Shown here in pieces: positions 5,282 through 48,239 of a stretch of 51,551 nucleotides of DNA; positions within the stretch are counted from its first letter, which is position 1, and each line of letters opens with the position of its first letter. A model generated the notes under the pieces. It saw nothing but the letters and a program-made list of their open reading frames with translations. It made no database searches and had not been told where the DNA came from. A program made the position numbers and the translations under genes. Source of the DNA: Clostridia bacterium. GTDB taxonomy: Bacteria > Bacillota > Clostridia > Christensenellales > UBA1242. Location: positions 1 to 51,551 of the forward strand of contig JBNMHN010000002.1 of assembly GCA_050872805.1 (NCBI GenBank), written 5' to 3'.

Positions 5282-5623
5282 TTATTGTTTTATATAAATG
5301 AAATCGCCTGCAACGAGTTTGTCAAAATTTACTTCGGACAATTCGTCGGCGCAAACAATTTTTGTGTTCATTTTTTTGAGCGTGTCAAGACCTAGCCTGT
5401 AACTGTTTTTGCCGTCGTCAACATACAACAATCCGTTCTTTGTAAAGCCGTCGCTCTCCCTTAAATCGCCAAGCCGAAGCGGAACAAACTGCACAGTCGG
5501 TATTAGACGCCCTGAAACGCCAGCTTTTACGCTGTTGGCTTGTGCCTCGACTGACGCTTCAACCGAGGACACACTAGCCGTTATTTTGGCTCTCACGCCG
5601 TCGATGTCAGTTGTCAGTGGCAT
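5282..5623 (-). CDS. small baseplate/fibre-associated hypothetical protein (113 aa)
   Basis: Track ORF 5282..5689 trimmed to ATG 5623 (MPLTTDIDG), which has a GGAGGT RBS. Confidence 0.5.
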   Translation of the reverse strand: MPLTTDIDGVRAKITASVSSVEASVEAQANSVKAGVSGRLIPTVQFVPLRLGDLRESDGFTKNGLLYVDDGKNSYRLGLDTLKKMNTKIVCADELSEVNFDKLVAGDFIYIKQ

Positions 5624-19487: not shown

Positions 19488-20087
19488 CTATTTTAGATTT
19501 TTTTGATAATCTGCCAAAATGTCTTCGAGTTTCATATCTGAACCAATTATGTTGATGTTTGTTTGGCTTCCGTCATCCTCTTTCATTCCGAGAACCGCTT
19601 TGCCTAAAAATGCGCCAGCACGAGAGTCGTATTCACCAGTCAACATACCTTGAACAAGTATAGATTTGAACCAATCTTGGATTTGCCTTGCGACTTCGCC
19701 TTTATCATTGTTTTCGTATGTCCAGTTGTTAAAAGTCTGGGTTGATACGCTTAACATCTTACACAGAGAATAGATTGTTGGTTGGAATCTTGTGCTTTCA
19801 CTCAACATCAATGTGATTTGGCGTAGCGTATCCATTGCTTCCATTAAATCTTCAGCACTAACAGATGTGCTGCCGCCCTTTCGCTCGACAAAATATTGCA
19901 TTGGCTTTATGATTTTCCCCTCAATGAAATTTGATTTGTTGCAACGCAAGTCATCAAAGTCTATTTCAGAGATTTCGCGCCTGATTTTGTCAAGATATTC
20001 TTTTTTACAGGTCTCTAAATCGTTATAGACCATTTCTCGGTTTTTTCTCGGCACTAATTGCGAGTCAAGTTTCGGTTTTCTTGCCAT
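19488..20087 (-). CDS. terminase small subunit-like protein (199 aa), located downstream of TerL
   Basis: PTIYSLCKMLSVSTQTFNNW (HTH-like) and AGAFLGKAVLGMKED resemble Terminase_2-type small subunits. Confidence 0.5.
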   Translation of the reverse strand: MARKPKLDSQLVPRKNREMVYNDLETCKKEYLDKIRREISEIDFDDLRCNKSNFIEGKIIKPMQYFVERKGGSTSVSAEDLMEAMDTLRQITLMLSESTRFQPTIYSLCKMLSVSTQTFNNWTYENNDKGEVARQIQDWFKSILVQGMLTGEYDSRAGAFLGKAVLGMKEDDGSQTNINIIGSDMKLEDILADYQKNLK

Positions 20088-20095
20088 TTTTCACC

Positions 20096-22030
20096 TCAAA
20101 AAGGAAGTTGTTTGTATGTCTTAAGTATATTTTTCGAGTTGACATTGAAAATGAAGTTCTCTGCCACACCACAAATTGAGTCGGGTGCGTCGTCGTGCGA
20201 ATTTTTAGACACGTCAGCGGAGTATTGCGTCATATTGTTCATAAAAACGCCCATTTGGGTTCTTCCAGCGAACCTGCGCTTTGACGGGAACACAATGTTT
20301 TCCTTAACTGTGCCAGCCATAAGCGCGATTCTTTGGGCTTTGTTGACAGTGTTATACTTTGTAACAACCTCACACCAACGGATGTCAAGTGCTTTGAGTT
20401 TCATTTTAATGACTTCTGCCAAGCTTCCATCTACGTTTTCTTCTATAATCAGTTTGACAATCTTGTTTTTGATAATCTTATTGATAATATCTCCATACAA
20501 GTCGATTGACGCTTTTTGCACAAAAATGCAGTCAGTAAGGTAGTAAAGCTCGTCTTTCTTGTTTTGGCGCAGTATTGGCATTGAGAAAAAGTCTTTTGCG
20601 CTTCGCCTTGTCGGGTCGATGTACGAAATAGACTGTTCGTTGAGGTCTTCGGTTGGCAATTCGTCGTATGTTTTCAAGAAGTCGTAGTCGAAAATGAGTC
20701 CCTCGGCTGGAATTGGCTTTTGCCTCCAAATACACGCATAACTGTACGGGTCGAGACCGTTTCGTTTTTGCACTAACGCTTCGGTACTAATAAACTCTGG
20801 GTATGCGCTTTCACCAAACTCGTTCTCGCAGTCGTTTATTATAACTATTGTTTTGTTGTCCGCACTAATATACGTATTCTTGAAGCGTGGGTCTGGGCGT
20901 GCGCCATTCATTGCCAGCCCGATTTCTTGGGCAAACACGTCGTTAGGGTTGAACATTGTGCCAGTAAGCAAAATGAGTTGGTCGTCTTGTTCTTCAAAAC
21001 GGTCTGAAAAGTCGCCCCTAAACAACTGAACAATGTCGTTATGCAGTTTAGAGTTCGTTGCTTCTTGTTGACCGCGAGATGGGTCGTCCATTGCCGCCAC
21101 GCAACAACGCACAGAGTTAATTGCAGAGTCTCTTGTCTTAAAAACAGTAGCCGTAGGCGTGTACTTGACACCATTTATAATCCATTCTTCATCTGATGAC
21201 TTGCTAAAAGGTCTATACATTCCTTTGATTATCAGTTGCCGATTCTCTGGATATATATCAATGATTCTCTTGTTCTCAATTAGGTTCTTCGTTTGCGCTG
21301 ATTGTGCAAAGATGTTGCCCTGTTCGTTGCCTACACGCAGGAATCCGCCTTTCTCATAGATAATCCACGCCAATTCAGAGTACATCTCGTTCATCGTGTT
21401 GACAAGATATGATTTTCCGCTCGATGGGAACGTGGAAAACACTATTTTTGAGGGCGTGAACTGGTAATTTTGGTCTGAAGTCGGCATTTTTAGCCCAAAA
21501 CGACCGAGTAAGCCTTGATTGAACCACCAAATTGCCGATTCGAGTATGCGTTTACGACTTGGGTATGCTTTTTTGGTCTTGTCGCGCTCCAAATATTGTA
21601 TGTTGTACTCAATAAAGTAGCGAGCCGCTATTGCCATTTGCTCCCAGCGCAGTACGTCGTATATATATGCCAAGTGGCTGTACCGTTTTATCGAACCGTC
21701 TTGTTGACGTTGTTCCGTGTTCTCGTCTTGCAAACCGCACCACTCTTTAACCCACGCAGAAGTCGCAAAATACTTGTAACAGTATTCGAGCATTTCCTCT
21801 ATTTTCCGCATTGTATGCGTGTAAGCATAGCAACTTGCCCGAAAATCGTTCAACTTGTACATTAAATTGACGAGCCTACACTCTGTCACCAAAGCATTAA
21901 ACTCGTCTTTTAGTGAATACTTCGCAAAGCTGTACGTCCGCAATGGGTTCTTCCCCGCAACCTTTTTGAAGTTATATTCTATTTCCTTGAGGTCGTCTCC
22001 CTCGTACTTGTGCTTGTCGTGCATATGCAA
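20096..22030 (-). CDS. terL: terminase large subunit (644 aa)
   Basis: Walker A-like FPSSGKS; Walker B-like VAAMDDPS; nuclease-type acidic motifs IDPTRRSAKD and NSHDDAPDSICG near the C-terminus. Confidence 0.85.
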   Translation of the reverse strand: MHMHDKHKYEGDDLKEIEYNFKKVAGKNPLRTYSFAKYSLKDEFNALVTECRLVNLMYKLNDFRASCYAYTHTMRKIEEMLEYCYKYFATSAWVKEWCGLQDENTEQRQQDGSIKRYSHLAYIYDVLRWEQMAIAARYFIEYNIQYLERDKTKKAYPSRKRILESAIWWFNQGLLGRFGLKMPTSDQNYQFTPSKIVFSTFPSSGKSYLVNTMNEMYSELAWIIYEKGGFLRVGNEQGNIFAQSAQTKNLIENKRIIDIYPENRQLIIKGMYRPFSKSSDEEWIINGVKYTPTATVFKTRDSAINSVRCCVAAMDDPSRGQQEATNSKLHNDIVQLFRGDFSDRFEEQDDQLILLTGTMFNPNDVFAQEIGLAMNGARPDPRFKNTYISADNKTIVIINDCENEFGESAYPEFISTEALVQKRNGLDPYSYACIWRQKPIPAEGLIFDYDFLKTYDELPTEDLNEQSISYIDPTRRSAKDFFSMPILRQNKKDELYYLTDCIFVQKASIDLYGDIINKIIKNKIVKLIIEENVDGSLAEVIKMKLKALDIRWCEVVTKYNTVNKAQRIALMAGTVKENIVFPSKRRFAGRTQMGVFMNNMTQYSADVSKNSHDDAPDSICGVAENFIFNVNSKNILKTYKQLPF

Positions 22031-22441: not shown

Positions 22442-22631
22442 CGTCGCCGCCCTCTCCGCAGTAGTTCATCACATAATACTTGCAAACGTCAGCGTGGGCG
22501 CATTCGACTTCATATACCAAGTTCGCCGCTTGCCCGTTGATTATGTCGCCGTACCTGTTGAGTTCAAGTTCCTTGTACGGGCACTGTTTGCAACGTTCGC
22601 TCATTTCAATCTTAAAATTTCCAGTTCTCAT
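22434..22631 (-). CDS. small Cys-rich hypothetical protein (65 aa)
   Basis: ORF track; first ORF downstream of tRNA-Trp on the late strand. Confidence 0.5.
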   Translation of the reverse strand: MRTGNFKIEMSERCKQCPYKELELNRYGDIINGQAANLVYEVECAHADVCKYYVMNYCGEGGDDE

Positions 22632-22661
22632 TGTCGCTTTCCTCCGACTTTATTTTTTTGT

Positions 22662-22735
22662 TGGCACGCAGGCAAGGACTCGAACCTCGACAAACGGTTT
22701 TGGAGACCGTCGTACTACCTTTATACTACCCACGC
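22662..22735 (-). tRNA. tRNA-Trp (anticodon CCA), 74 nt with encoded CCA
   Basis: Manual cloverleaf: D stem GTAT/GTAC; anticodon stem ACGGT/ACCGT; loop CTCCAAA; T arm CGAGG-TTCGAGT-CCTTG; discriminator G; acceptor stem has three G.U pairs. Confidence 0.8.
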
Positions 22736-22840
22736 ATAATAAGGAGGTGTGCCGCCGCCAGTGAGGTAGTCTGGCTTTTGTGTATTTGTTGGCTCGGCAG
22801 GGGAAAAATGTTAAAAACCCATAAGCCAAGCGGCACGTTT

Positions 22841-23125
22841 TTAGTTTTTGTCTTTGAAAACTCGTATAGAATAGTCGTCTTCCGTTATTTCTTTTCGCTT
22901 GTTTAGGCGGTTTATTGTTTCTATGTGCCCGCACTCGGGACACTCCACATACTCTATATTCGATTCGACAGTGCTCGGTATGAACAACGAAAACAAGTCG
23001 TCTCGCAAGTCATACTTTTGAACGTCGCGCTCGTCAAACTCGAACACGCACCTGCACTTCCCGCACGTCACCACTCTGTTGTCTTTGCCACTCGTTATTA
23101 CTTTCACAGCTTTCCGCCTCCTCAT
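22841..23125 (-). CDS. zinc-ribbon protein (94 aa)
   Basis: CGKC...CPEC pairs; track ORF trimmed to the only ATG (23125) because the annotated GTG/TTG lies inside a TTGACA promoter box. Confidence 0.55.
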   Translation of the reverse strand: MRRRKAVKVITSGKDNRVVTCGKCRCVFEFDERDVQKYDLRDDLFSLFIPSTVESNIEYVECPECGHIETINRLNKRKEITEDDYSIRVFKDKN

Positions 23126-23135
23126 TTTCGCTTCA

Positions 23136-23164
23136 AGTTTACCACTTGTTTTTTGTCTTGTCAA
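23136..23164 (-). promoter_or_regulatory. sigma-70/sigma-A type promoter TTGACA-17-TAAACT
   Basis: -35 at 23164-23159, -10 at 23141-23136, 17-nt spacer; predicted start only about 4 nt before ATG 23125. Confidence 0.5.
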
Positions 23165-23214
23165 CACCTTTTTTTACGCCAGAGGGCGACTTTCTTCGCC
23201 ACCACCAGTTTTGC

Positions 23215-23242
23215 TAATAAAAAAGTAGGTTGTTGCCCTACT
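23215..23242 (-). terminator. intrinsic terminator after zinc-ribbon gene 23276..23521
   Basis: Minus strand AGTAGG-GCAACAA-CCTACT followed by TTTTTATT. Confidence 0.6.
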
Positions 23243-23275
23243 CTCCGTCGTAATTACTTGCTTTTACGCTTACTC

Positions 23276-23521
23276 TTACTTTTGTGATTTTTTGCGCTTG
23301 GTGTTTAATATTTGCGCCTTTGTTTTCGCTGAAATCGCACAAAACGCTTCTTCGCGTTCTTTCGGGTTCAAAAACTTCACGTATTTCCCGCAATAACTGC
23401 AATATGCCCCAACATTGAAAGTGTGTTTGTATATGTCCAAGTCTCGACACCCACAATGCGGGCATTCTTTACCAACAAGCCTAATTTTTGCTCCAACCAA
23501 CGTCTTTTTATCTTCTTTCAT
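23276..23521 (-). CDS. zinc-ribbon protein (81 aa)
   Basis: CPHC...CSYC pairs; basic C-terminal tail. Confidence 0.6.
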   Translation of the reverse strand: MKEDKKTLVGAKIRLVGKECPHCGCRDLDIYKHTFNVGAYCSYCGKYVKFLNPKEREEAFCAISAKTKAQILNTKRKKSQK

Positions 23522-23595
23522 ACTTTTACATACTGCTGAACAAGTTATATACGCATACTCTCTATATCTTGTCCCTTTTTAAGAACACGCAACGG

Positions 23596-23627
23596 AAATA
23601 AGTAGAAATCCCCCTACGAGAGGGGGA
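23596..23627 (-). terminator. GC-rich hairpin plus U-rich tract (terminator of the non-coding unit)
   Basis: Minus strand TCCCCCT-CTCGT-AGGGGGA followed by TTTCTACTTATTT. Confidence 0.5.
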
Positions 23628-24085
23628 GAACCACTACTTCCTTGCGCAAAATTTTCAACTTCTTTCTTGCTTTCGCCTTGTCCCATTTTGAAGTTTCCGC
23701 TTTTCGCAAACCCACTGTGTAGCCCTGACATTTCAGCCAGTAAGTCCACTTGCCACTTCGTCCACAAGTATCGGACTCAATCCTCATTCCGAAGACCTAC
23801 AATTCCAACCCGCCGCATTTTTTATAGTGGTATATTAGCGTCTGTTCTCCACTTGACGTCAGCAGAACCAGTGGGTACTCTGCCAAACGGGCGTCATTCT
23901 CGCATTTCGGTTCGCCAAACCAACAGTTGTTAGGGAGTTGTATGCTTGCTCCCGCATATAAAGAAAGAGCATTGCTCCCCACCGAATACATAAGCAACGC
24001 TCTCAATATACATAGTATTTACAATACATAGTACCAGGTTTATGTTGACTCCGAGTTCGTGGGGCAGACTCTTTCGTCTTTTTCT
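23600..24085 (-). ncRNA. candidate ~485-nt non-coding transcript (large ncRNA or late-operon leader)
   Basis: Bounded by a near-consensus promoter (24092-24120) and a hairpin terminator; internal ORFs (62 and 69 aa) use TTG starts and lack an RBS. Confidence 0.4.
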
Positions 24086-24091
24086 ACACCA

Positions 24092-24120
24092 AGTATACAC
24101 CCAGTTTGACCCAATGTCAA
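24092..24120 (-). promoter_or_regulatory. near-consensus promoter TTGACA-17-TATACT with upstream A/T tract
   Basis: -35 at 24120-24115, -10 at 24097-24092, exact 17-nt spacer, A/T-rich 24121-24140. Confidence 0.65.
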
Positions 24121-24593
24121 GCGTTTTTTTCAAAATTTTTTAGGGGACTTTTTGCACCCTCCCAGCCGCCCCGCGCCCCCTAATTCCCGCTCTCCCAACT
24201 GGCAAACGTATAGTTTGGGTTTTACTATAGCTTTCTATTAGAATTGGACGTGGAGGTGACACCCCCCCCACCGAGGCACTTAAAATACCCTGTCCCCCCT
24301 CTCGTATGCGCATATATTGAATCGCGCGCGCGTACGTATACAACGGCGCAAACGGCAACGGCAACGGCGGACGGCGTTTTGACGCTCTACAAGGGGGCAA
24401 AAACGAGCGCAAGCCAACGAGCCGAGCGACAACTCAACCGCGAGCGCAAACGCCGCTTAAAACGCCGCTCACGGCGTCGGCGGTTCAGTTCACGCAAGCG
24501 ACAGCACCGACACACGAGAAAATATACACATTGTACAATAAGAAACACAAATAAGAAAATGTGTGTAAGTTGCAAAAAAGCACTCAAAAACGC

Positions 24594-24622
24594 TCGACAA
24601 CTCTAAAAAAAAGTAGTAGTAT
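24594..24622 (+). promoter_or_regulatory. possible early promoter TCGACA-17-TAGTAT
   Basis: 5/6 match at -35 and 4/6 at -10; 17-nt spacer; about 100 nt upstream of the first early gene. Confidence 0.3.
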
Positions 24623-24720
24623 GTCCACGACGGTTGAGAATAGCAACAACCGCCCCCGCTCAGAGCGAGCGGACGGACAAAAAAACGGACAAAAAAAACA
24701 CAAAAAGAGAGGACAAAAAA

Positions 24721-25383
24721 ATGTTGACATTCAGAAACAAAAACAACGGCAAAACAATAGCACTCGACACGGACAAAAAAGCGTTTTACTACGCGGACGG
24801 CTCGGACGTAAAAGCCGTAAACAAAAACGGTCAAATCAATCCCGTATTCAAAAACGGACTCAATGCGGACGGACAAACGGACAAAAACGCAATATACCGA
24901 GTTTATATTGATGTCGACGAAAACGGACAAAAAACCTCGTACGGACTCGAAAACCTCACCGCCGAAAACCTCGCAATATTGAGCGGTTTGTACCTCGACG
25001 GCGTACACCTCACGGTTGGCAAGCGCAACCCCGAGCAAAACGGCAACGGCAACGGCGACGGACGGACGAAAAAAGCAAAACTCGCAATATTCGAGTTGCC
25101 GAAAACGTACGTACAAAAACTATTTTTGACAGAGTACGCTCAGACAGTCGAAAAGTACGGACAGTATATCGACGTCGCGGACACTCTCAAACTATTCGGC
25201 GACTTGCAAGCGACAACGGCATTGTTTGAGCAAGCGGACAAGGACTATGCCGACACGCTCGCAAGCATTGAGCAAAAACGCAAGGACGAGAGAGCGAGCG
25301 AAAACTTGTTCAACAAATTTGTTGACTTGACGGACGAGCAAAAAGCCGCATTCCTTGCAATGCTCGGACAAAAAGCAAACTAA
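24721..25383 (+). CDS. first early protein, unknown function (220 aa)
   Basis: Track ORF 24634..25383 trimmed to ATG 24721 with an AGAGAGGA RBS; followed by a strong terminator. Confidence 0.65.
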   Translation: MLTFRNKNNGKTIALDTDKKAFYYADGSDVKAVNKNGQINPVFKNGLNADGQTDKNAIYRVYIDVDENGQKTSYGLENLTAENLAILSGLYLDGVHLTVGKRNPEQNGNGNGDGRTKKAKLAIFELPKTYVQKLFLTEYAQTVEKYGQYIDVADTLKLFGDLQATTALFEQADKDYADTLASIEQKRKDERASENLFNKFVDLTDEQKAAFLAMLGQKAN

Positions 25384-25405
25384 ACACGGACGGACTCAGA
25401 CGGAC

Positions 25406-25428
25406 ACGGCGGGCAAAACCGCCGTTTT
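25406..25428 (+). terminator. intrinsic terminator
   Basis: ACGGCGG-GCAAAA-CCGCCGT followed by a TTT...TTTTTTTT tract. Confidence 0.7.
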
Positions 25429-25532
25429 CGCCTTGTCTTTTTTTTCAGACAAAAAGCACGGACAAACGACGGACAAAAAGTGCACCGACGCCAACGGACA
25501 AAAATTATTATTTTGCGAGGTAAATTATTATT

Positions 25533-25733
25533 ATGAACAAAACAATCTCAGGCATCGCAAAGATGATTATTCTACGCCGAGATACGTCGGATGCGGGGGC
25601 AACGGTTCTCAAATCAGATTATCTCAAAGGGCGAGCAGCCGAGGGCGATTATATCTTGGAGCAACTCAGAATATTTTTCCCAGATGAAGTAGCCCAGGCA
25701 AAATCAGAAATTTATGGAGATTCAGACAAATGA
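25533..25733 (+). CDS. hypothetical protein (66 aa)
   Basis: ORF track; GAGGT RBS. Confidence 0.5.
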   Translation: MNKTISGIAKMIILRRDTSDAGATVLKSDYLKGRAAEGDYILEQLRIFFPDEVAQAKSEIYGDSDK

Positions 25734-25879
25734 CAACATCACAGTATTTTTATGTGCATTATTATGATTGCAACAACCACGCAAGATGTGAGGCGGTATT
25801 CGCTGATTCTTTCGAGTCGGCAATCCGCAAACTGTTCCTACGCCACATCGGCGAGGACATCGCGATTTGCGTGAACTGA
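25730..25879 (+). CDS. hypothetical small protein (49 aa, below track cut-off)
   Basis: ATGA start/stop overlap with the upstream ORF; manual translation MTTSQYFYVHYYDCNNHARCEAVFADSFESAIRKLFLRHIGEDIAICVN. Confidence 0.4.
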   Translation: MTTSQYFYVHYYDCNNHARCEAVFADSFESAIRKLFLRHIGEDIAICVN

Positions 25880-25946
25880 TAGCCCTCCACTTTTTGTGAC
25901 GATGTTTTGGGCGGCGTTCATCGTAAAATCAAACCTCCCACCATCT

Positions 25947-26020
25947 GGCGCACTGGTCAAGAAGTAAGACGGTTGATTCTCAGTCAGCAATCGGGAGTGC
26001 AAATCTCTCGTGCGTCACCA
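25947..26020 (+). tRNA. tRNA-like element (would be tRNA-Glu, anticodon CTC) with non-canonical D and T loops
   Basis: Acceptor GGCGCAC/GTGCGTC plus A-CCA; anticodon stem GTTGA/TCAGC; loop TTCTCAG; T stem GGGAG/CTCTC. The T loop reads TGCAAAT and the D loop lacks GG. Confidence 0.5.
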
Positions 26021-26029
26021 CAAACCAAA

Positions 26030-26197
26030 CCGAGTTTGACATCGCAGTAAATGAGTCCTCGTTGTAAGTCGCGATATGGCGCGCCGTAAAAAGTCGAGGT
26101 TGTAAGCCGAGTTTATCATCTCGGGGCGGGGGCTGATGTGTAAGCCACTATCCATCAGCTCGGCGTTCTCACGCTCTCGTCGGGCGCAAAAAGCGTG
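26030..26197 (+). other. cluster of four stem-loops carrying a repeated TGTAAGYC motif
   Basis: Hairpins CCTCG/CGAGG (26057/26095), CCGAG/CTCGG (26107/26120), GCTGATG/CATCAGC (26132/26153), CACGCT/AGCGTG (26170/26192); TGTAAGYC at 26063, 26101, 26139; CCGAGTTT at 26030 and 26107. Confidence 0.5.
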
Positions 26198-26209
26198 AAC
26201 ACCCCACTC

Positions 26210-26677
26210 TATCTATATATATACTCAGTATATCCTTAGTTATTATGTAGGCATAGATACGTGCGTGTGCGTTATTTATCTTCCTATATGTATACATAAG
26301 CGTAGTATATCTAAGTATAAGCTATATACGGTGAGCGATATATATAAGAGTATAAGTGCAGTTACTAATCTAAGAATATAACCGACGGAGAGTATATCAT
26401 AGTGTAGTACGGAGCGATATACGATAGTATAAGTATATAGTGCAGTATCTAAGCTAATAAAGAGTAGATTATACGTCGTTAATAAGTGCAAGTAGTCTAT
26501 ATATAGTGTAGTAGATTATTGAGTGTGCGTTTAATAGCAAAGGCGTATATCGGGCGGGCGGACGTGTGCGCTCGTGCGCGATTAGTTATATAATAAGTAA
26601 ATACAATGATATATAGTGTATTAGTAGTTTTTAGATAAGAGCGTGCGCGATTATCTTGATTATTATGTGCTGTATAT
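26210..26677. repeat. AT-rich iteron-like repeat block (candidate replication origin or regulatory hub)
   Basis: TATATAGTGYAKTA x3 (26434, 26500, 26610); 42-nt imperfect direct repeat 26333-26374 / 26412-26453; GTGCGCGATTA x2 (26574, 26643); no plausible ORF. Confidence 0.6.
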
Positions 26678-39495: not shown

Positions 39496-40131
39496 ATGGG
39501 AAAAGTTTTGTTAGATACTGAAATATGGGATAGTCTTTCCGAATGTTCGGCTAATAGCAAGTATTTGTTCCTTTGGCTAAAAACGAACCCTATAAGCAAA
39601 AGTTTAATAGGAAACCATAAAATTCCAAGCAAGATAATAGAGTTTTATACTGGGCTATCGCATAACGATGTTAATAACTCTATTAATGAGTTGGTAGAAA
39701 AGGGCATAATATTTGTAGATAATAAAAATATACTTATTCTCGACTCGTATAAAGACTATACAACGTCAATAACATTTCAAACAAAATTAAAGGAAGAATT
39801 GTTGAATATAGACAGTGAAAAAATACGAAATATCGTATTGGAATGGCTAAAAATATTGCAAAAAAGACAAGCGAATAACATCACTAACAATAATACCGCT
39901 AAAAGACTATATTCTATGTTTGGCGGCAAGTGCGCTTATTGCGGAGTAGAGTTAAACACTGATAACTTCACAATAGACCACAAAAATCCAAGAATAAATG
40001 GCGGGGGAAACGAATTTGGCAATCTTTTCCCAAGTTGTAGACATTGTAATTCGCAAAAAAGCGGGCGCACAATTAACGAGTATCGTTTGGCGTTCTTCAA
40101 CAAAAAACATAAATTTTATTTCGAGGTATAA
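39496..40131 (+). CDS. HNH endonuclease domain protein (211 aa)
   Basis: CAYCG...DHKNPRINGGGNEFGNLFPSCRHCNSQK. Confidence 0.75.
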   Translation: MGKVLLDTEIWDSLSECSANSKYLFLWLKTNPISKSLIGNHKIPSKIIEFYTGLSHNDVNNSINELVEKGIIFVDNKNILILDSYKDYTTSITFQTKLKEELLNIDSEKIRNIVLEWLKILQKRQANNITNNNTAKRLYSMFGGKCAYCGVELNTDNFTIDHKNPRINGGGNEFGNLFPSCRHCNSQKSGRTINEYRLAFFNKKHKFYFEV

Positions 40132-40133
40132 TA

Positions 40134-40973
40134 ATGTCGGACGTAAAAGACACAAATTCATTTACAATACACGCTTGGATGGCAACAAAACTAAAACTCT
40201 CGGGCAACGAGTTGTTGTTGTATGCACTGATATTCACTTTTTCGCAAGACGGAAAGTCAGAGTTTTTCGGCAGTCGTTCTTACTTATCGGACTTTATAAA
40301 CGCCTCGAAAAGAACGGTTGACGGGGTTTTAACAAGTTTACAAGAAAAGGGGCTAATAAAAAAACGTGTTCAAGTTACTAACGGAGTGACCAACAACTTT
40401 TACTCGGTGTGTGATGAAGAAATTGCACAGGGGGTGCAAAAATTGCAGGGGGACGGTGAAGAAGTTGCACCCAAATATAAAGAAGAATATAAAGATAAAG
40501 AAAATTATAATAAAAGAAACGAAAACATAGTTCAACCCTCTTTTTTAGCAAACGACGAAAACCAAGTTCAAAACGAAAAGGTTGATTTAGAAACGGAAAC
40601 TCCGACTACTACGTCATCTTTAACAGCACCTAACGAACAACCAAGTTCACGACAAGTTGCTAATAAAGATGATGATAGCAGTGAGTACGATAAAATAATA
40701 AAATACTTTGAACAAACTTGGTTAATATACCCACGCAAAGAGGGAAAGGTACAAGCAAAAACTACATTCACGCACAAAGTATATACGAAAGACGAGGAAG
40801 TTAGTCGCTTAAACGCTTTGAAAATTTACAAAATATTGCAACGGCAAATCAAGGCGTGGGACAACGAAAATAATGGAGGTGGACGAAAAAACCAGTTCAT
40901 ACCGCATTTTAGTAGCTGGCTCAACGACAACTTTGAGGACGTTCCTAAAAAAGAGCGAGGTAAGATAAAATGA
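40134..40973 (+). CDS. winged-HTH replication organiser / initiator-like protein
   Basis: LSGNELLLYALIFTFSQ...SRSYLSDFINASKRTVDGVLTSLQEKGLIKK wHTH pattern; position upstream of the helicase module. Confidence 0.55.
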   Translation: MSDVKDTNSFTIHAWMATKLKLSGNELLLYALIFTFSQDGKSEFFGSRSYLSDFINASKRTVDGVLTSLQEKGLIKKRVQVTNGVTNNFYSVCDEEIAQGVQKLQGDGEEVAPKYKEEYKDKENYNKRNENIVQPSFLANDENQVQNEKVDLETETPTTTSSLTAPNEQPSSRQVANKDDDSSEYDKIIKYFEQTWLIYPRKEGKVQAKTTFTHKVYTKDEEVSRLNALKIYKILQRQIKAWDNENNGGGRKNQFIPHFSSWLNDNFEDVPKKERGKIK

Positions 40974-42040
40974 GCAACAATGTAGTGCGAGAGATAACAT
41001 ACTTGGGGCGCACAAAAAAGTTCACGAATGACTTTGACTTGCTAAGCGAAGACGAATACAACGAAATCGTTGCTAAATGGTATGAAAAAGCCGACCGAGA
41101 CACAGTGAACGAAGAAATATTGTTGTTTGACGAGGGCGGTATTAAGTTCGCGGAAATAACCGATTATTACTTCAGAGATGTTATGGACGACTCAATACGT
41201 ACTGGCGCAAAGTGGAGCATAAACGAGGTTATGTCGAGCCGAGAGTTGTTATCGTCAGTTGTAGGAAAAATAAGGCGCAACCCAAAATTTTTCACAAGCC
41301 CTACACTCGTTGAAAACATCGACACGTATTTTAGAGTCGGTAGCGATGGGACGGCAATTAAAGTGTGTCAATTCCCAACAAAAGTTGCCGACTATATTCT
41401 ATATGAATACAATGTAAACGGCAATTATTATGATTATAGTTGCGGTTGGGGTGCGAGGCTTGCTTGTGCACTGAAAAACCGAGTAAACTATTTTGGGACA
41501 GACCCAAACTATAAATTGGTTGAGTGCTTAAACAAGTTTACAAAAGATTACACCAAACTAATGAGAACGACAACTGGTGTCGAAATTAGGTGTCAAGGGA
41601 GCGAGGATTATGTGCCAGAGTGGGAAAACAAAATGGGGCTTGCTTTTTCAAGTCCACCATACTTTTGCCTCGAAGATTACCGAACGGGCAAGCAGTCGTA
41701 TATCGCTGGCAAAACCTCTTACGACAGCTGGCTGAAAAACTATTTAGAGCCGACAATACAAAACATATACAAATACTTGGTGCACGACGGTTATTTCGTA
41801 TGTAACATAAAGAATTTTGACAAGTACAAAATGGAAGATGATATGGTAAAACTTGCGTGCGACAATGGTTTTGTGTTATACAAAGTTGACAAATTAAAAC
41901 AAGGCAAGAGAGTGTCTGGATTTACGGGTGACACCGATGACATTATGCTTGACGTAAACGAAAATATCTATGTATTTATAAAGCAAGGCGCAACACCGAA
42001 ACAATGCCACCCAGTGCAACTTTCGCTGTTCGATTTGTGA
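40970..42040 (+). CDS. N6-adenine/N4-cytosine DNA methyltransferase
   Basis: SPPY catalytic motif (LAFSSPPYFCLEDY) and SAM-binding-like YDYSCGWGARL. Confidence 0.8.
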   Translation: MSNNVVREITYLGRTKKFTNDFDLLSEDEYNEIVAKWYEKADRDTVNEEILLFDEGGIKFAEITDYYFRDVMDDSIRTGAKWSINEVMSSRELLSSVVGKIRRNPKFFTSPTLVENIDTYFRVGSDGTAIKVCQFPTKVADYILYEYNVNGNYYDYSCGWGARLACALKNRVNYFGTDPNYKLVECLNKFTKDYTKLMRTTTGVEIRCQGSEDYVPEWENKMGLAFSSPPYFCLEDYRTGKQSYIAGKTSYDSWLKNYLEPTIQNIYKYLVHDGYFVCNIKNFDKYKMEDDMVKLACDNGFVLYKVDKLKQGKRVSGFTGDTDDIMLDVNENIYVFIKQGATPKQCHPVQLSLFDL

Positions 42041-42049
42041 GGAGGAAAA

Positions 42050-43163
42050 ATGATAAAATTATTGATTGGCGGTAGCCCGTGTACTTACTGGTCGTGCGCT
42101 CAAAAGCACAACCGAGAAACACAAGCCGAGGGTTTAGGCTGGGAATTGTTCAAAAACTACTTAATAGCAAAAGAAAAATTCAAACCAGACTTCTTCTTAT
42201 ACGAGAACAACAAATCTGCGTCGCAAGCAATAAAAGACCAAATAAAACAAGAATTGGGCGTGTGGGACGGCTCAATTTTAACAGAAGATAGCGGTGTGAG
42301 GTACATAGAAATTAATTCCGCGCTCGTTTCAGCACAAAATCGCCAACGCTTTTACGTGCATAATTGTGGCGAGGTACAACAGCCAATAGACAGGGGAATA
42401 CATATTAGCGATATATTAGAAAGCAATGTAGGAAAGCCTATAAATATATGCGTCAACGAAAAGTCAAGGACAATAAAGGCGCAATACCAACAAAGCAGCA
42501 TAGCGAATTTCGTAACAAATGGCGGTCACAATGCAACTGGTATAGCGCAACGAATACCAACATACGGGAATAAAGAAAAATCTCGTCCAGTAAAAGCAAG
42601 TTATGCAAACAAAGGAGCGGGACAAGGTTCGTTAAATACAGAGTGTTTCCCAGCAGGCACAGTAAAAGAGAAAAGCGACTATATTGTTGAGCCAAGCAGA
42701 GACAAAAGTGGGAGATGTGTACAGGGTTGTAAATGGACTTATTTACATAAGTGGGAAAGAGCACCCAATAGACCTCGAAGATGGAGATTACACAATACGC
42801 AAGTTGACAGTGAAAGAGTGCTGCCGTTTGCAGACAATGCCCGACGATTATATGAAGTCAGTTAGTGCAAGTCAAGGTTACAAAGGTATTGGAAACGGAT
42901 GGACGGCGGAAGTTATAATACACATTCTCAACTATGCGCTTAAAAACGTGCCAAAAGACGAGGAAATAGTTGTGCTGTCAATGTATGACGGAATAGGGAC
43001 TGGTCGATATTGTCTTGATAAAATGGGCTTTACAAACGTAAAATATTATGCTTACGAAATAGACAAGTATGCAATGACTGTTGCAAAAGATAATTACCCA
43101 GACATCATAGAGTGCGGTGACGCATTCCAAGTAAGAAATGAAGATTGGAGGTTATATGACTAA
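42050..43163 (+). pseudogene. circularly permuted DNA (cytosine-5) methyltransferase, frame broken by a 1-nt indel near 42704-42707
   Basis: Motif order IV (GGSPCTYWS), VI (FFLYENN), VIII (SAQNRQRFY), IX (RKLTVKECCRLQTMPDDY), X (GIGNGWT), then I (VLSMYDGIGTG) and II/III (YAYEIDKYA..GD). The two track ORFs overlap at 42684-42865. Confidence 0.75.
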
Positions 43164-45623: not shown

Positions 45624-46199
45624 ATGGAAGAAATTTGGAAAGACATACCTGATTATGAGGGAATTTATCAAGCGAGCAATTTGGGAAGAATAAGAACCGC
45701 CCCAAACAAAACTACTTATACCGAATTGCGAGGCGTAAGGCATTGGAAGATGCGAATAATGAAAGGGAAAGGCAATAATAAGCACACTGGCGCAAGAGTT
45801 GGTTTGTGGAAAAACGGCAAATGCAAAGATTGGCTTGTTGCGAGACTCGTGGCAATTACATTTTTAGGTAAGCCGAGTCCAGATAAAAACACAGTAAACC
45901 ATATTAACGGGAACAGGCTCGATAATAGAATTGAAAATCTTGAATGGCTAAGTCTTGCAGATAATATACGGCACGCTGTTGATACAAACCTGTGTTCGCA
46001 AAACAAAATAATAACGCTAATTTCTGCTGAAGAAAAGAAAACATTTCGTTCGTTTTGCACTGCATCAAAATTTTTAGGGAAATGCAATGGTTATGTGTCT
46101 AACACAATAAAAGCAAAAAGAAAATTGGTTGGTAGCGATGGAAAAATATGGGACTATATTATAGTCGGAAATAAAAAGAAAAATAAACAGGAGGAATAA
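45624..46199 (+). CDS. free-standing HNH homing endonuclease (NUMOD4-like N-terminus plus HNH_3-like core)
   Basis: WKDIPDYEGIYQASNLGRIRT and VNHINGNRLDNRIENLEWLSLADN. Confidence 0.8.
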   Translation: MEEIWKDIPDYEGIYQASNLGRIRTAPNKTTYTELRGVRHWKMRIMKGKGNNKHTGARVGLWKNGKCKDWLVARLVAITFLGKPSPDKNTVNHINGNRLDNRIENLEWLSLADNIRHAVDTNLCSQNKIITLISAEEKKTFRSFCTASKFLGKCNGYVSNTIKAKRKLVGSDGKIWDYIIVGNKKKNKQEE

Positions 46200-48165: not shown

Positions 48166-48239
48166 TGGCGGGCAATGCTGGAATCGAACCAACATATGTC
48201 GATTAACAGTCGAGCGTTCTACCTTTGAACTAATCGCCC
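48166..48239 (-). tRNA. tRNA-Asn (anticodon GTT), 74 nt with encoded CCA
   Basis: Manual cloverleaf: acceptor GGGCGAT/ATTGCCC; D arm GTTC-AAAGGTA-GAAC; anticodon loop CTGTTAA; T arm GTTGG-TTCGATT-CCAGC; discriminator G. Confidence 0.85.

What the first reader, a model, noticed from the sequence alone, without database searches (positions are those of the whole stretch)
23596..24120. Non-coding unit of about 485 nt, bounded by a promoter and a terminator, between the early and late modules
The 1.2 kb between 23522 and 24720 has no convincing ORF. On the minus strand, TTGACA (24120-24115), an exact 17-nt spacer and TATACT (24097-24092) form a near-consensus promoter, preceded by an A/T-rich tract. 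About 485 nt downstream a 7-bp GC hairpin (TCCCCCT-CTCGT-AGGGGGA, 23627-23609) is followed by a U-rich run. The only internal ORFs (62 and 69 aa) start at TTG and lack the GGAGG-type RBS that most genes here have. Many short helices are visible, for example CCCCAC/GTGGGG at 23978-23983/24059-24064 and GGGAG/CTCCC at 23933-23937/23949-23953. A 9-nt direct repeat TACTATGTA is also present. I cannot judge the significance of these helices by eye. The unit lies about 0.9 kb from tRNA-Trp at the head of the late strand. Large phage-borne structured RNAs such as ROOL and GOLLD are typically found in prophages close to tRNA genes. An alternative reading is a long processive-antitermination or attenuation leader for the late operon. 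An extended -10 (TGGTATATT, 23828-23836) on the opposite strand also raises the possibility of overlapping antisense transcripts.
Basis: partly seen in the sequence, partly recalled or inferred. Interest (0 to 1): 0.7.

Follow-up and report, generated by a model that had tools for sequence, protein, structure and literature searches.

The report
New large structured phage RNA gene
The gap between the two gene blocks of this human-gut phage encodes a roughly 520-base non-coding RNA with its own promoter; its many helices are kept intact in related phages by matching mutations, and it matches no catalogued RNA family, so it looks like a new class of large phage RNA with an unknown job.

Summary
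No ORF in between is conserved.

The interval is a real structured RNA of about 520 nt (about 24085 to 23567, minus strand). It is present in some 20 related gut-phage contigs.
- On 13 distinct full-length homologues, 87% of cells in 96 proposed pairs form standard pairs, against 36-47% when partners are slid.
- 40 pairs show double compensatory changes, and 0 of 500 shuffles reach the observed values.
- An alignment-free test gives p<5e-5 for seven helices.
- G-U pairs place the RNA on the promoter's strand.

It has two domains that recombine independently.
- The 5' domain (about 130 nt) has two hairpins whose hypervariable loops stay complementary. It ends in a terminator-like hairpin and an invariant U-rich tract.
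- The 3' domain (about 390 nt) is multi-branched.

More distant phages carry a homologue between a TerS-like gene and the portal gene, with its own promoter and terminator. It is therefore an autonomous RNA gene, not just a leader.

No Rfam family matches, including ROOL and GOLLD. The function is unknown. The leading options are a GOLLD/ROOL-like trans-acting RNA particle, or a cis-acting antitermination or attenuation element.

The parts
24092..24145 (-). Promoter of the RNA gene: A/T-rich upstream tract, -35 TTGACA (24120-24115), 17-nt spacer holding the direct repeat TGGGT-N5-TGGGT, and -10 TATACT (24097-24092).
   Evidence: 11/12 consensus match. The exact 29-nt pattern is unique in the window and conserved in 18 fetched loci, which include duplicate fetches of the same contigs. 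More distant homologues each have their own TTGAC-17-TAnnnT promoter.
23567..24085 (-). The whole structured RNA, about 519 nt. The start is inferred 7 nt after the -10. The end is the last conserved stem-loop, SLb. A product ending at the hairpin and U run (about 23600) would be about 486 nt.
   Evidence: nhmmer profile match 24090-23566, E 5e-150, with full-length matches in all relatives with TerL identity of at least 71% whose upstream region was fetched. Pair counts are, RNAalifold. No conserved ORF.
23956..24085 (-). 5' domain, about 130 nt: purine-rich leader GUAGAAAAAGACGAAAG, hairpin H1, hairpin P3, hairpin T, and the invariant U-rich tract CUUUCUUUAUAU (23967-23956). It is exchanged as a block between relatives.
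   Evidence: The mosaics L022, L023 and L020 show the recombination boundary at the U tract.
24047..24078 (-). Hairpin H1 (GAC..GUC and GAGU..ACUC). Its loop carries P2a, CCCCAC (24064-24059).
   Evidence: Cognate versus non-cognate duplex test: 11 variants, -8.8 versus -6.5 kcal/mol, permutation p<5e-5.
23977..23982 (-). P2b, GUGGGG, in the loop of hairpin T. It pairs with P2a (24064-24059) as a loop-loop (kissing) or pseudoknot helix. The two loop segments that carry it are the most variable of the 5' domain, yet they are always complementary.
   Evidence: Ten different helix sequences (CCCCAC/GUGGGG, GAAACGGA/UCCGUUUC, GGUCACGG/CCGUGACU, UCCCACUA/UAGUGGGA and others). Cognate -13.0 versus non-cognate -6.1 kcal/mol; 4 of 88 non-cognate pairs are as good; p<5e-5. 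Segment identity is only 0.40.
24008..24034 (-). Hairpin P3 (GGUAC...GUAU enclosing GUAUU-GUA-AAUAC).
   Evidence: pairs almost invariant. In the divergent types L013 and L019 it is replaced by a simple 5-bp hairpin, GUACU/AGUGC.
23966..24003 (-). Hairpin T: an 11-bp stem, AGAGCGUUGCU/AGCAAUGCUCU, with a 16-nt loop, followed by the U-rich tract. It is terminator-like. Its lowest 3 bp can pair instead with the leader (helix P1b).
   Evidence: Nine variants, -17.7 versus -12.2 kcal/mol, p<5e-5. Six of 9 pairs have double changes (helix 8). The alternative leader:T3' pairing also covaries, AU:5 and GC:5 (columns 25/142).
23933..23953 (-). Hairpin P5 (GGGAG/CUCCC) with the conserved loop CAAGCAUACAA.
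   Evidence: Variants GGGAG/CUCCC, UGGGG/CCCCA, CGAGG/CCUCG, AGAG/CUCU and AGCC/GGCU. Three of 5 pairs have double changes (helix 9).
23813..23926 (-). 3' subdomain I. The long-range helix P8 (CUGU 23926-23923 with GCGG 23816-23813) encloses hairpins P6 (23916-23890), P7 (23889-23857) and P9 (23853-23826), followed by the conserved AUAAAAAAU.
   Evidence: P7 has 11 variants with p<5e-5; P9 p=0.001; P6 p=0.017; helices 10-13 are 75-100% paired with 10 double-change pairs. RNAalifold recovers them independently.
23725..23778 (-). Hairpins P11 (23778-23742, two-part stem with a conserved RAU bulge) and P12 (23740-23725, loop UGAAAU, a GAAA/GAGA tetraloop in distant homologues).
   Evidence: P11 has 9 variants and P12 has 10, both p<5e-5. 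See, helices 14-17. Also present in the L028 and L030 homologues.
23677..23693 (-). Small stem-loop SLa (CUU-CAAAAUGGGAC-AAG) within the conserved GAAACUUCAAAAUGGGACAAG. It is a near-repeat of SLb.
   Evidence: helix 18. The two copies change in concert between types: GGGACAAG twice, GGCAAG twice, GGGAUUGAG twice.
23587..23647 (-). Long terminal hairpin Pterm.
   Evidence: terminator-like. Eleven variants, -14.4 versus -7.5 kcal/mol, p<5e-5. A U run follows in types A, C and E but not in B or D.
23568..23583 (-). Small stem-loop SLb (CUU-AAAAAGGGAC-AAG). It is the last conserved element and lies 46 nt upstream of the first ORF (start codon at 23521).
   Evidence: helix 21.

Best explanation
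What it is. The interval is an autonomous gene for a large (about 520 nt), two-domain, highly structured non-coding RNA. It defines a family not in Rfam, carried by a clade of human-gut siphovirus-like phages.

Shown:
- A near-consensus, conserved sigma-70-type promoter (24120-24092) points into the unit. Transcription itself has not been observed.
- The RNA sequence keeps at least 14 helices through compensatory mutation.
- The 5' domain is a bundle of three hairpins. The loops of the first (H1) and last (T) hairpins form a hypervariable but always complementary 6-8-bp helix. T is followed by an invariant U-rich tract.
- The 3' domain is the conserved core. It has two multi-branch subdomains, a GNRA-type loop, two look-alike small stem-loops and a long terminal hairpin.

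Inferred mechanism. The molecule works as a folded RNA in its own right, as a discrete, probably abundant particle that binds a partner or assembles with copies of itself, in the manner of GOLLD and ROOL. It does not work as a coding region or a simple 5' UTR. The two terminator-like hairpins (T at about +135, Pterm at about +486) would give short and long products and let some transcription run on into the packaging genes.

My estimates: about 0.93 that it is a selected structured RNA on this strand, and about 0.5 that it acts as an autonomous (trans-acting or self-assembling) RNA rather than in cis.
For: Structure.
- 13 distinct full-length homologues: 87.3% of 1177 cells in 96 pairs are standard pairs, against 36-47% for slid partners. 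40 pairs have double changes, against 9-19. The covariation score is 0.324, against 0.08-0.13. 0 of 500 shuffles reach the observed values.
- RNAalifold independently predicts 82 pairs, 33 with compensatory changes.
- The alignment-free cognate versus non-cognate duplex test gives p<5e-5 for H1, P2, T, P7, P11, P12 and Pterm.

Strand. 119 of 771 pairs are G-U, and the helices are weaker on the opposite strand.

Non-coding. No ORF is conserved.

Autonomy.
- L028, L030 and L031 (TerL 62-63% identical) carry a homologue of the 3' domain (nhmmer E 3e-13 to 1e-11; 5.6e-11 for L028 in the larger search). It lies between a 200-aa TerS-like gene and the portal gene, with its own TTGACT-17-TAnTAT promoter and a terminal hairpin followed by U6.
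- L013 and L018 have a second promoter between the RNA and the first late gene.
- L016 and L027 (66% TerL) lack the RNA altogether.
- The domains are shuffled between relatives.

No known family. Rfam is negative at E<=10 and E<=5.

Parallel. GOLLD is phage-borne, has a conserved 3' and a variable 5' region, and has no known function (PMC12286853).
Against: - No expression data. The ends, abundance and timing are all inferred.
- In sequence types B and D no U run follows the terminal hairpin, and the next gene follows within 40-100 nt. There the RNA must be co-transcribed with late genes, which fits a cis role equally well.
- In every phage examined the RNA lies just downstream of a strong promoter, co-directional with and upstream of a 17-23-kb gene array. 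That is also the arrangement expected for a processive antitermination element.
- No partner protein co-occurs consistently, and no complementary target was found elsewhere in the phage genome.
- The family is known from only about 20 contigs of one phage clade. Many of the sequence types are related by descent, so the shuffle statistics overstate independence.
Confidence: 0.5

Rival explanations
1. Cis-acting leader that controls transcription of the packaging and structural genes. The 5' domain is an attenuator. Hairpin T plus the U tract stops most polymerases after about 135 nt, as lambda tR' does for the PR' 6S transcript. Read-through would be set by the alternative leader:T3' pairing or the loop-loop helix, by a phage or host factor or ligand, or by the RNA itself making RNA polymerase termination-resistant as the put and EAR RNAs do.
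For: - A strong consensus promoter drives the RNA and lies co-directional with, and upstream of, the packaging and structural gene array, about 23 kb in this window.
- T is an 11-bp covarying hairpin followed by a 100% conserved U-rich tract.
- Two mutually exclusive pairings for the base of T both covary. Single-sequence folds split between the two conformers.
- The promoter spacer has a conserved TGGGT-N5-TGGGT repeat that could bind a regulator.
- In types B and D nothing separates the RNA from the late genes.
- In the L028/L030 type the RNA with its promoter again sits upstream of the portal and the rest of the structural genes. This resembles the intra-operon position of EAR.
Against: - T has loops of 11-22 nt, beyond usual intrinsic terminators. 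The best-conserved part of the RNA lies downstream of T with no promoter in between, so T cannot be an efficient stop.
- The alternative pairing competes for only 3 bp, and it would have to form after the U tract is made.
- About 390 further nucleotides of conserved structure are not needed for attenuation. Known put and EAR RNAs are 70-120 nt.
- L013 and L018 have a separate promoter for the late genes downstream of the RNA.
- Relatives L016 and L027 express the same operon without the element.
- No Q-, N- or LoaP-like protein was recognised among the roughly 36 window proteins scanned, about 10 of them on both libraries.
Confidence: 0.3
2. The 5' domain alone is a riboswitch-like sensor. It would be a junction of helices P1, H1, P3 and T. 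A ligand would stabilise the loop-loop contact with the regulatory hairpin, as the kissing loop does in cobalamin riboswitches, and so set the ratio of short to long transcripts.
For: - The size (about 130 nt) fits, as does a closing helix between leader and U tract, covarying hairpins, and a loop-loop contact that reaches into the terminator-like hairpin.
- The unpaired stretches are invariant (leader, P3 region, U tract).
Against: - No match to any riboswitch model in Rfam.
- The domain is swapped freely, and in L028, L030 and L029 it is replaced by very different 5' parts. That is unlike a conserved ligand pocket.
- The junction nucleotides are purine or pyrimidine tracts rather than a typical binding core.
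Confidence: 0.07
3. A DNA-level element, with the helices incidental. It would be a packaging site (cos or pac), a replication origin or an operator cluster at the junction of the divergent gene blocks.
For: - It lies next to the terminase genes.
- Several genome-length contigs end 20-600 bp upstream of the promoter.
- TAC-N3-GTA repeats occur in P3, and TGGGT repeats in the promoter.
Against: - The pairing partners are 20-110 nt apart and covary. 15% of pairs are G-U, which would be A-C mismatches on the other strand and have no meaning in duplex DNA. The helices are clearly stronger on the transcribed strand.
- The contig ends are scattered rather than at one site, and they fall in the hypervariable repeat region upstream, not inside the RNA.
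- The homologue in L028 and L030 sits at another genomic position.
Confidence: 0.03
4. It encodes one or more small proteins: the 57-, 62- or 69-aa ORFs.
For: ORFs of 57-69 aa exist on the minus strand. They persist in the closest relatives.
Against: - They are frame-shifted or truncated by 1- and 2-nt indels in L011, L017, L026 and L022. They have no counterpart in types B, C, D or E.
- Two start at TTG, and none has an evident ribosome-binding site.
- There are no family hits.
- The substitutions are compensatory in helices rather than codon-periodic.
Confidence: 0.01

Closest known systems
GOLLD RNA (Rfam RF01998): giant ornate phage or prophage ncRNA
   Same: Phage-encoded, several hundred nucleotides, many covarying helices and long-range contacts. 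It has a conserved 3' region and a poorly conserved, exchangeable 5' region, is often found near tRNA genes, and has no known function (PMC12286853).
   Different: There is no similarity detectable with the Rfam model. This RNA is shorter (about 520 versus over 800 nt) and has a different helix layout. Its tRNA linkage is inconsistent. It is fixed to the packaging module, on the late-gene strand, behind its own consensus promoter.
ROOL RNA (Rfam RF03087)
   Same: Similar length (about 580-660 nt), phage or prophage origin, complex structure with pseudoknots, and no protein partner known (PMC12286853, PMC5737381).
   Different: No covariance-model match and no shared motifs. Oligomerisation is untested here.
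phi29-family pRNA (packaging RNA)
   Same: A phage RNA encoded next to the packaging functions. A pair of loops stays complementary while varying between related phages. In pRNA that pairing is intermolecular and builds the ring on the portal (my own knowledge).
   Different: pRNA is about 120-174 nt. It belongs to phi29-like podoviruses with a gp16 ATPase and protein-primed replication. This phage has a classical TerL, an SPP1-type portal and an HK97-type capsid protein. There is no Rfam pRNA match. Whether the loop pairing here is within or between molecules is unknown.
Processive antitermination RNAs (HK022 put; Bacillus EAR) and the lambda PR'-6S-tR' arrangement
   Same: Placed just after a strong promoter and ahead of a long operon. 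It contains a short, terminator-ended promoter-proximal segment. EAR also lies inside an operon and contains a pseudoknot (my own knowledge).
   Different: put is two stem-loops of about 70 nt and EAR is about 120 nt, whereas this RNA is about 520 nt with a conserved 3' core downstream of the terminator-like hairpin. No Q-like protein was found. Activity on RNA polymerase is untested.
Cobalamin-riboswitch kissing-loop control
   Same: A loop of the sensing part pairs with the loop of the regulatory hairpin.
   Different: No sequence or model similarity, no known ligand, and the loop sequences are hypervariable.

Membership tests
ROOL (RF03087) | Scores against the Rfam covariance model | tested here: not met
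   cmscan of the whole window at gathering score. cmscan of 22500-26500 at E<=10 with permissive filters. cmscan of four other sequence types at E<=5. No ROOL match in any.
ROOL (RF03087) | Encoded in phages or prophages, often near tRNA islands | tested here: inconclusive
   The phage context is met. tRNA-Trp lies 0.83 kb downstream in the window. However L013, L018, L019, L028 and L030 carry the RNA with no tRNA in the fetched flanks, and L016 and L027 have tRNAs without the RNA.
GOLLD (RF01998) | Scores against the Rfam covariance model | tested here: not met
   no match.
GOLLD (RF01998) | Universally conserved 3' region and less conserved 5' region | tested here: met
   This is a resemblance only. 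The 3' domain is recognisable in L028, L030, L031 and L029, while the 5' part is replaced. The 5' domains are also shuffled among close relatives.
GOLLD / ROOL / OLE | Homo-oligomeric assembly (cages or dimers) through intermolecular contacts | not testable with these tools
   Covariation of the H1-loop/T-loop helix cannot tell pairing within a molecule from pairing between molecules. Native gels or cryo-EM are needed.
HEARO / IscB omega RNA (RF02033) | Covariance-model match, and an adjacent IscB-type (RuvC + HNH, about 400-500 aa) ORF | tested here: not met
   No Rfam match. The HNH genes that follow the RNA in L004, L012 and L017 encode only 130-218 aa, and the window has none adjacent.
phi29 pRNA (RF00044) | Covariance-model match, in a phi29-like packaging system (gp16 ATPase, protein-primed genome) | tested here: not met
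   No Rfam match. The phage has TerL and an SPP1-type portal.
Intrinsic (Rho-independent) terminator, for the hairpin at 23627-23609 | G+C-rich stem with a short loop, followed directly by a U run | tested here: met
   7-bp stem, 5 G-C pairs, 5-nt loop, tail TTTCTACTTA. Equivalent U runs follow the terminal hairpin in types C and E but not in B or D. The hairpin is conserved as structure; the terminator function is not universal.
Intrinsic terminator, for hairpin T at 24003-23966 | Stem, then a loop of about 3-8 nt, then a U run | tested here: inconclusive
   The 10-11-bp covarying stem and the invariant CUUUCUUUAUA are present. The loops are 11-22 nt, however, and the conserved 3' domain lies downstream with no promoter of its own.
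Processive antitermination RNA (put / EAR type) | Promoter-proximal, or upstream of terminators within a long operon | tested here: met
Processive antitermination RNA (put / EAR type) | Makes the transcribing RNA polymerase resistant to downstream terminators, in cis | not testable with these tools
   Needs transcription assays.
Lambda-type Q antitermination at a late promoter | A Q-family protein encoded by the phage | tested here: inconclusive
   No such family appeared among the roughly 36 window proteins scanned against Pfam and/or PHROGs, about 10 of them on both. Most proteins of this phage have no annotation, and not all ORFs were scanned.
Riboswitch | Match to a known aptamer class | tested here: not met

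The most novel reading that the evidence does not exclude
The RNA would then assemble into a ring or cage that works with the terminase-portal machinery, or encloses a cargo, during head assembly. That would make it a packaging- or assembly-associated RNA in a classical TerL/portal siphovirus, in some ways a counterpart of phi29 pRNA.

Points in favour:
- In all positions seen, the gene sits inside or at the head of the packaging module.
- The loop pair diversifies far faster than its flanks, which is easier to explain by selection for partner specificity than by folding alone.
- All three large ornate RNAs examined by cryo-EM so far turned out to be homo-oligomers (PMC12286853).
Probability: 0.08. 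Interest if true: 0.95.

Novelty: new variant of a known kind. Interest (0 to 1): 0.72.

Why it matters
Large (over 500 nt), intricately folded bacterial or phage RNAs without a known function are rare. OLE, GOLLD, ROOL, HEARO and raiA are the usual list, and each has led to unexpected biology such as RNA-guided nucleases and RNA-only nanocages.

This one comes from human-gut phages and has a clear promoter. Its two-domain build has natural 'domain swap' variants, and its loop-loop helix exists in at least ten natural sequence versions. That is close to a ready-made set of compensatory mutants.

It is short enough for chemical probing and cryo-EM, and its position makes two sharp hypotheses directly testable: an RNA particle linked to packaging, or RNA-based control of late transcription. 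Either outcome would add a new mechanism to phage biology.

Tried and rejected
- Known RNA families. Rfam searches at the gathering score and at permissive E-values, on the window and on four other sequence types, found only tRNAs.
- Single-sequence folding significance. The z-scores were -1.3 and -2.0, not informative.
- BLASTN against 50,697 GenBank phages. No match.
- BLASTN among relatives suggested that only 23901-24192 was conserved. This was misleading, because the helices covary. Profile and anchor searches showed conservation over the whole unit.
- Collection scans with DNA motifs. Viral contigs returned only the five known contigs plus one chance hit, L021. Genome contigs returned 0 hits. 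Metagenome contigs returned five human-gut contigs.
- TerL-based scan of genome contigs for a host. It gave one 10-kb contig binned in a Christensenellaceae MAG, with TerL 50% identical and no RNA. This is weak host evidence.
- Structure-aware MAFFT (x-insi, q-insi) was not installed.
- Helix P10 (GGUCUUC/GAGGAUU) was proposed from type A only and is not supported across types (p=0.19).
- A pseudoknot between the 5' flank and the loop of P9 (CGUC/GACG versus GUGA/UCAC) fits types A, B and D but not C. It is left out.
- A leader peptide, MYCKYYVY in P3, is not conserved.
- A conserved antisense promoter was rejected.
- Antisense targets of the conserved loops elsewhere in the phage genome were not found.
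- A partner protein that always accompanies the RNA was not found.
- The csRNA catalogue of IMG/VR (PMC10690425) covers only motifs of 29-151 nt, and its supplements were not readable here. I cannot exclude that a fragment of this RNA is listed there.
Full report
**1. Setting**

The window looks like a complete phage genome of about 51.5 kb.
- Genes on the minus strand from 23521 down to 360 include small Zn-ribbon and HTH proteins, tRNA-Trp, TerL (20096-22030), a weakly TerS-like 199-aa protein, an SPP1-type portal and an HK97-type capsid protein.
- Plus-strand genes start at 24721.
- The finding lies in the divergent gap between the two blocks.
- Relatives come from human-gut metagenomes. 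The host is unknown. A distant TerL relative sits on a contig binned with a Christensenellaceae MAG.

**2. The observation**

The promoter TTGACA-17-TATACT (24120-24092, minus strand) is the best sigma-70-like site in the 5-kb scan. The hairpin TCCCCCT-CTCGT-AGGGGGA followed by a T run (23627-23609) is found as described.

The ORFs of 57, 62 and 69 aa exist. They are broken by 1- and 2-nt indels in close relatives and have no counterpart in more distant ones.

Single-sequence folding energies are unremarkable (z -1.3 and -2.0). Chance cannot be judged from this sequence alone.

**3. Relatives**

TerL searches and exact-protein look-ups, together with motif scans, gave about 20 contigs that carry the element.

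BLASTN suggested that only 23901-24192 was conserved and that 23295-23900 had been 'replaced'. Reading the sequences side by side showed otherwise. Short invariant islands recur in the same order over the whole promoter-to-first-gene interval, and between them lie segments that differ in sequence but can always form the same helices.

A profile HMM then matched the full 500-530 nt in every relative with TerL identity of at least 71% whose upstream region was fetched, at E 1e-99 to 1e-150. I distinguish sequence types A (the window), B, C and D. L004 and L012 carry only the 5' domain followed by other sequence and an HNH gene.

**4. Structure**

In RNA coordinates, p = 24092 minus the window coordinate.

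5' domain:
- leader GUAGAAAAAGACGAAAG
- hairpin H1 (p14-45)
- hairpin P3 (p58-84)
- hairpin T (p89-126)
- invariant CUUUCUUUAUAU (p125-136, overlapping the last two bases of T)
- The H1 loop (CCCCAC, p28-33) pairs with the T loop (GUGGGG, p110-115).

3' domain:
- P5, with the loop CAAGCAUACAA
- a long-range helix, P8, that encloses P6, P7 and P9
- AUAAAAAAU
- P11
- P12, with a GAAA-type loop
- small stem-loop SLa
- SLb, a near-copy of SLa

RNAalifold also proposes a leader:U-tract helix (P1) that closes the 5' domain, and a UGGAA/UUUCC helix that closes the second 3' subdomain.

**5. Tests**

(a) Pair counts. On the MAFFT alignment of 13 distinct sequences, my structure of 96 pairs has 87.3% of cells paired, against 36-47% when partners are slid by 1-3 columns. 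40 pairs have changes on both sides, against 9-19. 128 cells have such changes, against 21-49. The covariation score is 0.324, against 0.08-0.13. 0 of 500 shuffles reach these values. The loop-loop helix scores poorly there (49%), but only because MAFFT puts its strands out of register.

(b) Alignment-free test. I cut out the blocks between conserved anchors and computed the best duplex for cognate and non-cognate combinations.

| Helix | Cognate (kcal/mol) | Non-cognate (kcal/mol) |
|---|---|---|
| P2 | -13.0 | -6.1 |
| T | -17.7 | -12.2 |
| P7 | -11.1 | -6.2 |
| P11 | -11.4 | -6.4 |
| Pterm | -14.4 | -7.5 |

- P2 has ten variants, and only 4 of 88 non-cognate pairs are as good as the cognate ones.
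- For these five helices plus H1 and P12, no permutation in 20,000 was as good.
- P9 gives p=0.001. P5 and P6 give about 0.015, with few variants. P10 is not supported.

(c) Strand. 119 of 771 pairs are G-U, and helices H1, T, P7, P11, P12 and Pterm are 3-6 kcal/mol weaker on the opposite strand. The structure therefore belongs to an RNA made from the minus strand, the direction of the promoter, and not to duplex DNA.

(d) Independent prediction. RNAalifold on the same alignment recovers most helices: 82 pairs, 33 with compensatory changes.

Caveat: the sequences are related, so the shuffle numbers are not probabilities. The slid controls and the number of entirely different helix sequences are the stronger arguments.

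**6. Modularity and autonomy**

- L022, L023 and L020 combine the 5' domain of one type with the 3' domain of another. The joint is at the invariant U tract.
- The H1-loop and T-loop segments are the most variable of the 5' domain (0.40 identity, 9-10 variants among 13). The neighbouring leader, P3 and U-tract segments are 0.77-0.95 identical.
- Relatives L016 and L027 (TerL 66%) have no such RNA.
- L028, L030 and L031 (TerL 62-63%) have a diverged homologue of the 3' domain (E 3e-13 to 1e-11; 5.6e-11 for L028 in the larger search). It lies at a different place, between the TerS-like gene and the portal gene. It has its own promoter, a 5' part in which an upstream strand again pairs with the loop of a long hairpin followed by a U run, and a terminal hairpin followed by U6.
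- L029 (58%) has a probable, further diverged copy at the head position.
- In L013 and L018 a second promoter lies between the RNA and the first late gene.

Together these results show an independently transcribed, accessory RNA gene that stays in or at the head of the packaging module, on the late-gene strand.

**7. How it may work**

Shown: promoter, strand, non-coding nature, conserved architecture, modularity.

Inferred: the RNA acts as a folded molecule. I favour (about 0.5) a discrete trans-acting or self-assembling RNA, by analogy with GOLLD and ROOL. My reasons are that it is self-contained in some phages, dispensable in others, far larger than any known leader element, and built like GOLLD with a conserved 3' core and a variable 5' part (PMC12286853).

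The main rival (about 0.3, plus about 0.07 for a ligand-sensing version) is cis control of late transcription.
- For: T plus the U tract looks like an attenuator. The base of T has two mutually exclusive partners that both covary. The element always sits behind a strong promoter and ahead of a long operon, as in lambda PR'-tR', put or EAR.
- Against: T has long loops, the best-conserved part of the RNA lies beyond it, and some phages place a separate promoter after the RNA.

DNA-level and coding explanations are very unlikely.

**8. Comparison with known families**

There is no Rfam match for any sequence type. It is therefore not a ROOL, GOLLD, HEARO, pRNA, riboswitch or other catalogued family.

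The antisense -10 is not conserved.

The nearest analogues in kind are GOLLD and ROOL. In placement, the nearest are put, EAR and the lambda 6S transcript. For the variable complementary loops next to packaging genes, the nearest is phi29 pRNA.

**9. Verdict**

This is a real, previously uncatalogued class of large structured phage RNA. Its structure is well supported and its function is unknown. Interest is high for RNA biology and phage biology. It is tempered by the narrow known distribution and the absence of expression data.

Noticed in passing
window 24140-25400 (+): The hypervariable, partly G+C-rich region upstream of the RNA promoter and the start of the first plus-strand gene are full of short direct repeats. 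ACGGACAAAAA-type units occur many times, and an exact 20-nt repeat, AAACGGCAACGGCAACGGCG, occurs at 24350 and 25038. AT skew is strongly positive from about 24300. Several genome-length contigs of relatives end 20-600 bp upstream of the promoter, within this region. It could be an iteron-like, origin or terminus region, or simply a place where assemblies break.
   Followed up: partly
window 24092-24120 (-); L013 about 5415-5445: The promoter spacer carries a conserved direct repeat, TGGGT-N5-TGGGT, with GGTGT again just after the -10. A near-identical promoter (TTGACATAGGGTAAAGTCGGTGCTATACT) occurs in L013 downstream of the RNA, in front of the late genes. L013's own RNA uses a different promoter. 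This suggests a phage-specific regulator site built into the promoter.
   Followed up: partly
window 23522-23545 (-): The Zn-ribbon gene that follows the RNA (23521-23276) has lost the GGAGG or GAGG ribosome-binding site seen in relatives. L011 reads TAGGAGGTAAAAGTATG, L003 TGTGAGGTAAAAGTATG, and the window CAGTATGTAAAAGTATG.
   Followed up: no
L004 6361-7017, L012 4048-4566, L017 702-1094: Small HNH endonuclease genes (130-218 aa) are inserted directly after the RNA, or after its 5' domain only, in some relatives. In some of them (L017) the HNH gene takes the place of the Zn-ribbon gene. The window has HNH genes elsewhere (39496-40131, 45624-46199). This fits free-standing homing endonucleases moving through the family.
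   Followed up: partly
window 23677-23693 and 23568-23583 (-): The two small stem-loops SLa and SLb flank the terminal hairpin and are near-copies of each other. They change in concert between sequence types: GGGACAAG in both, GGCAAG in both, or GGGAUUGAG in both. The reason is unexplained. They may share a binding partner, or one copy may be converted from the other.
   Followed up: partly
window 19488-20087 (-): The 199-aa protein encoded just after TerL has a weak match to small terminase subunits (PHROG 606, E 0.0097). The small subunit may therefore be encoded downstream of the large one. In L028 and L030 the RNA gene sits right after this gene's homologue.
   Followed up: no
window 22662-22735 (-), 25947-26020 (+), 48166-48239 (-): The phage carries three tRNA genes (Trp-CCA, Glu-CTC, Asn-GTT). 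Relatives carry different sets in the same intergenic slots (Thr, Gln, a second Glu).
   Followed up: partly
window 40970-42865 (+): Two adjacent DNA methyltransferase-like genes, one of the N6/N4 type (below Pfam's cut-off) and one of the C5 type. Their products probably protect the phage DNA from restriction.
   Followed up: no
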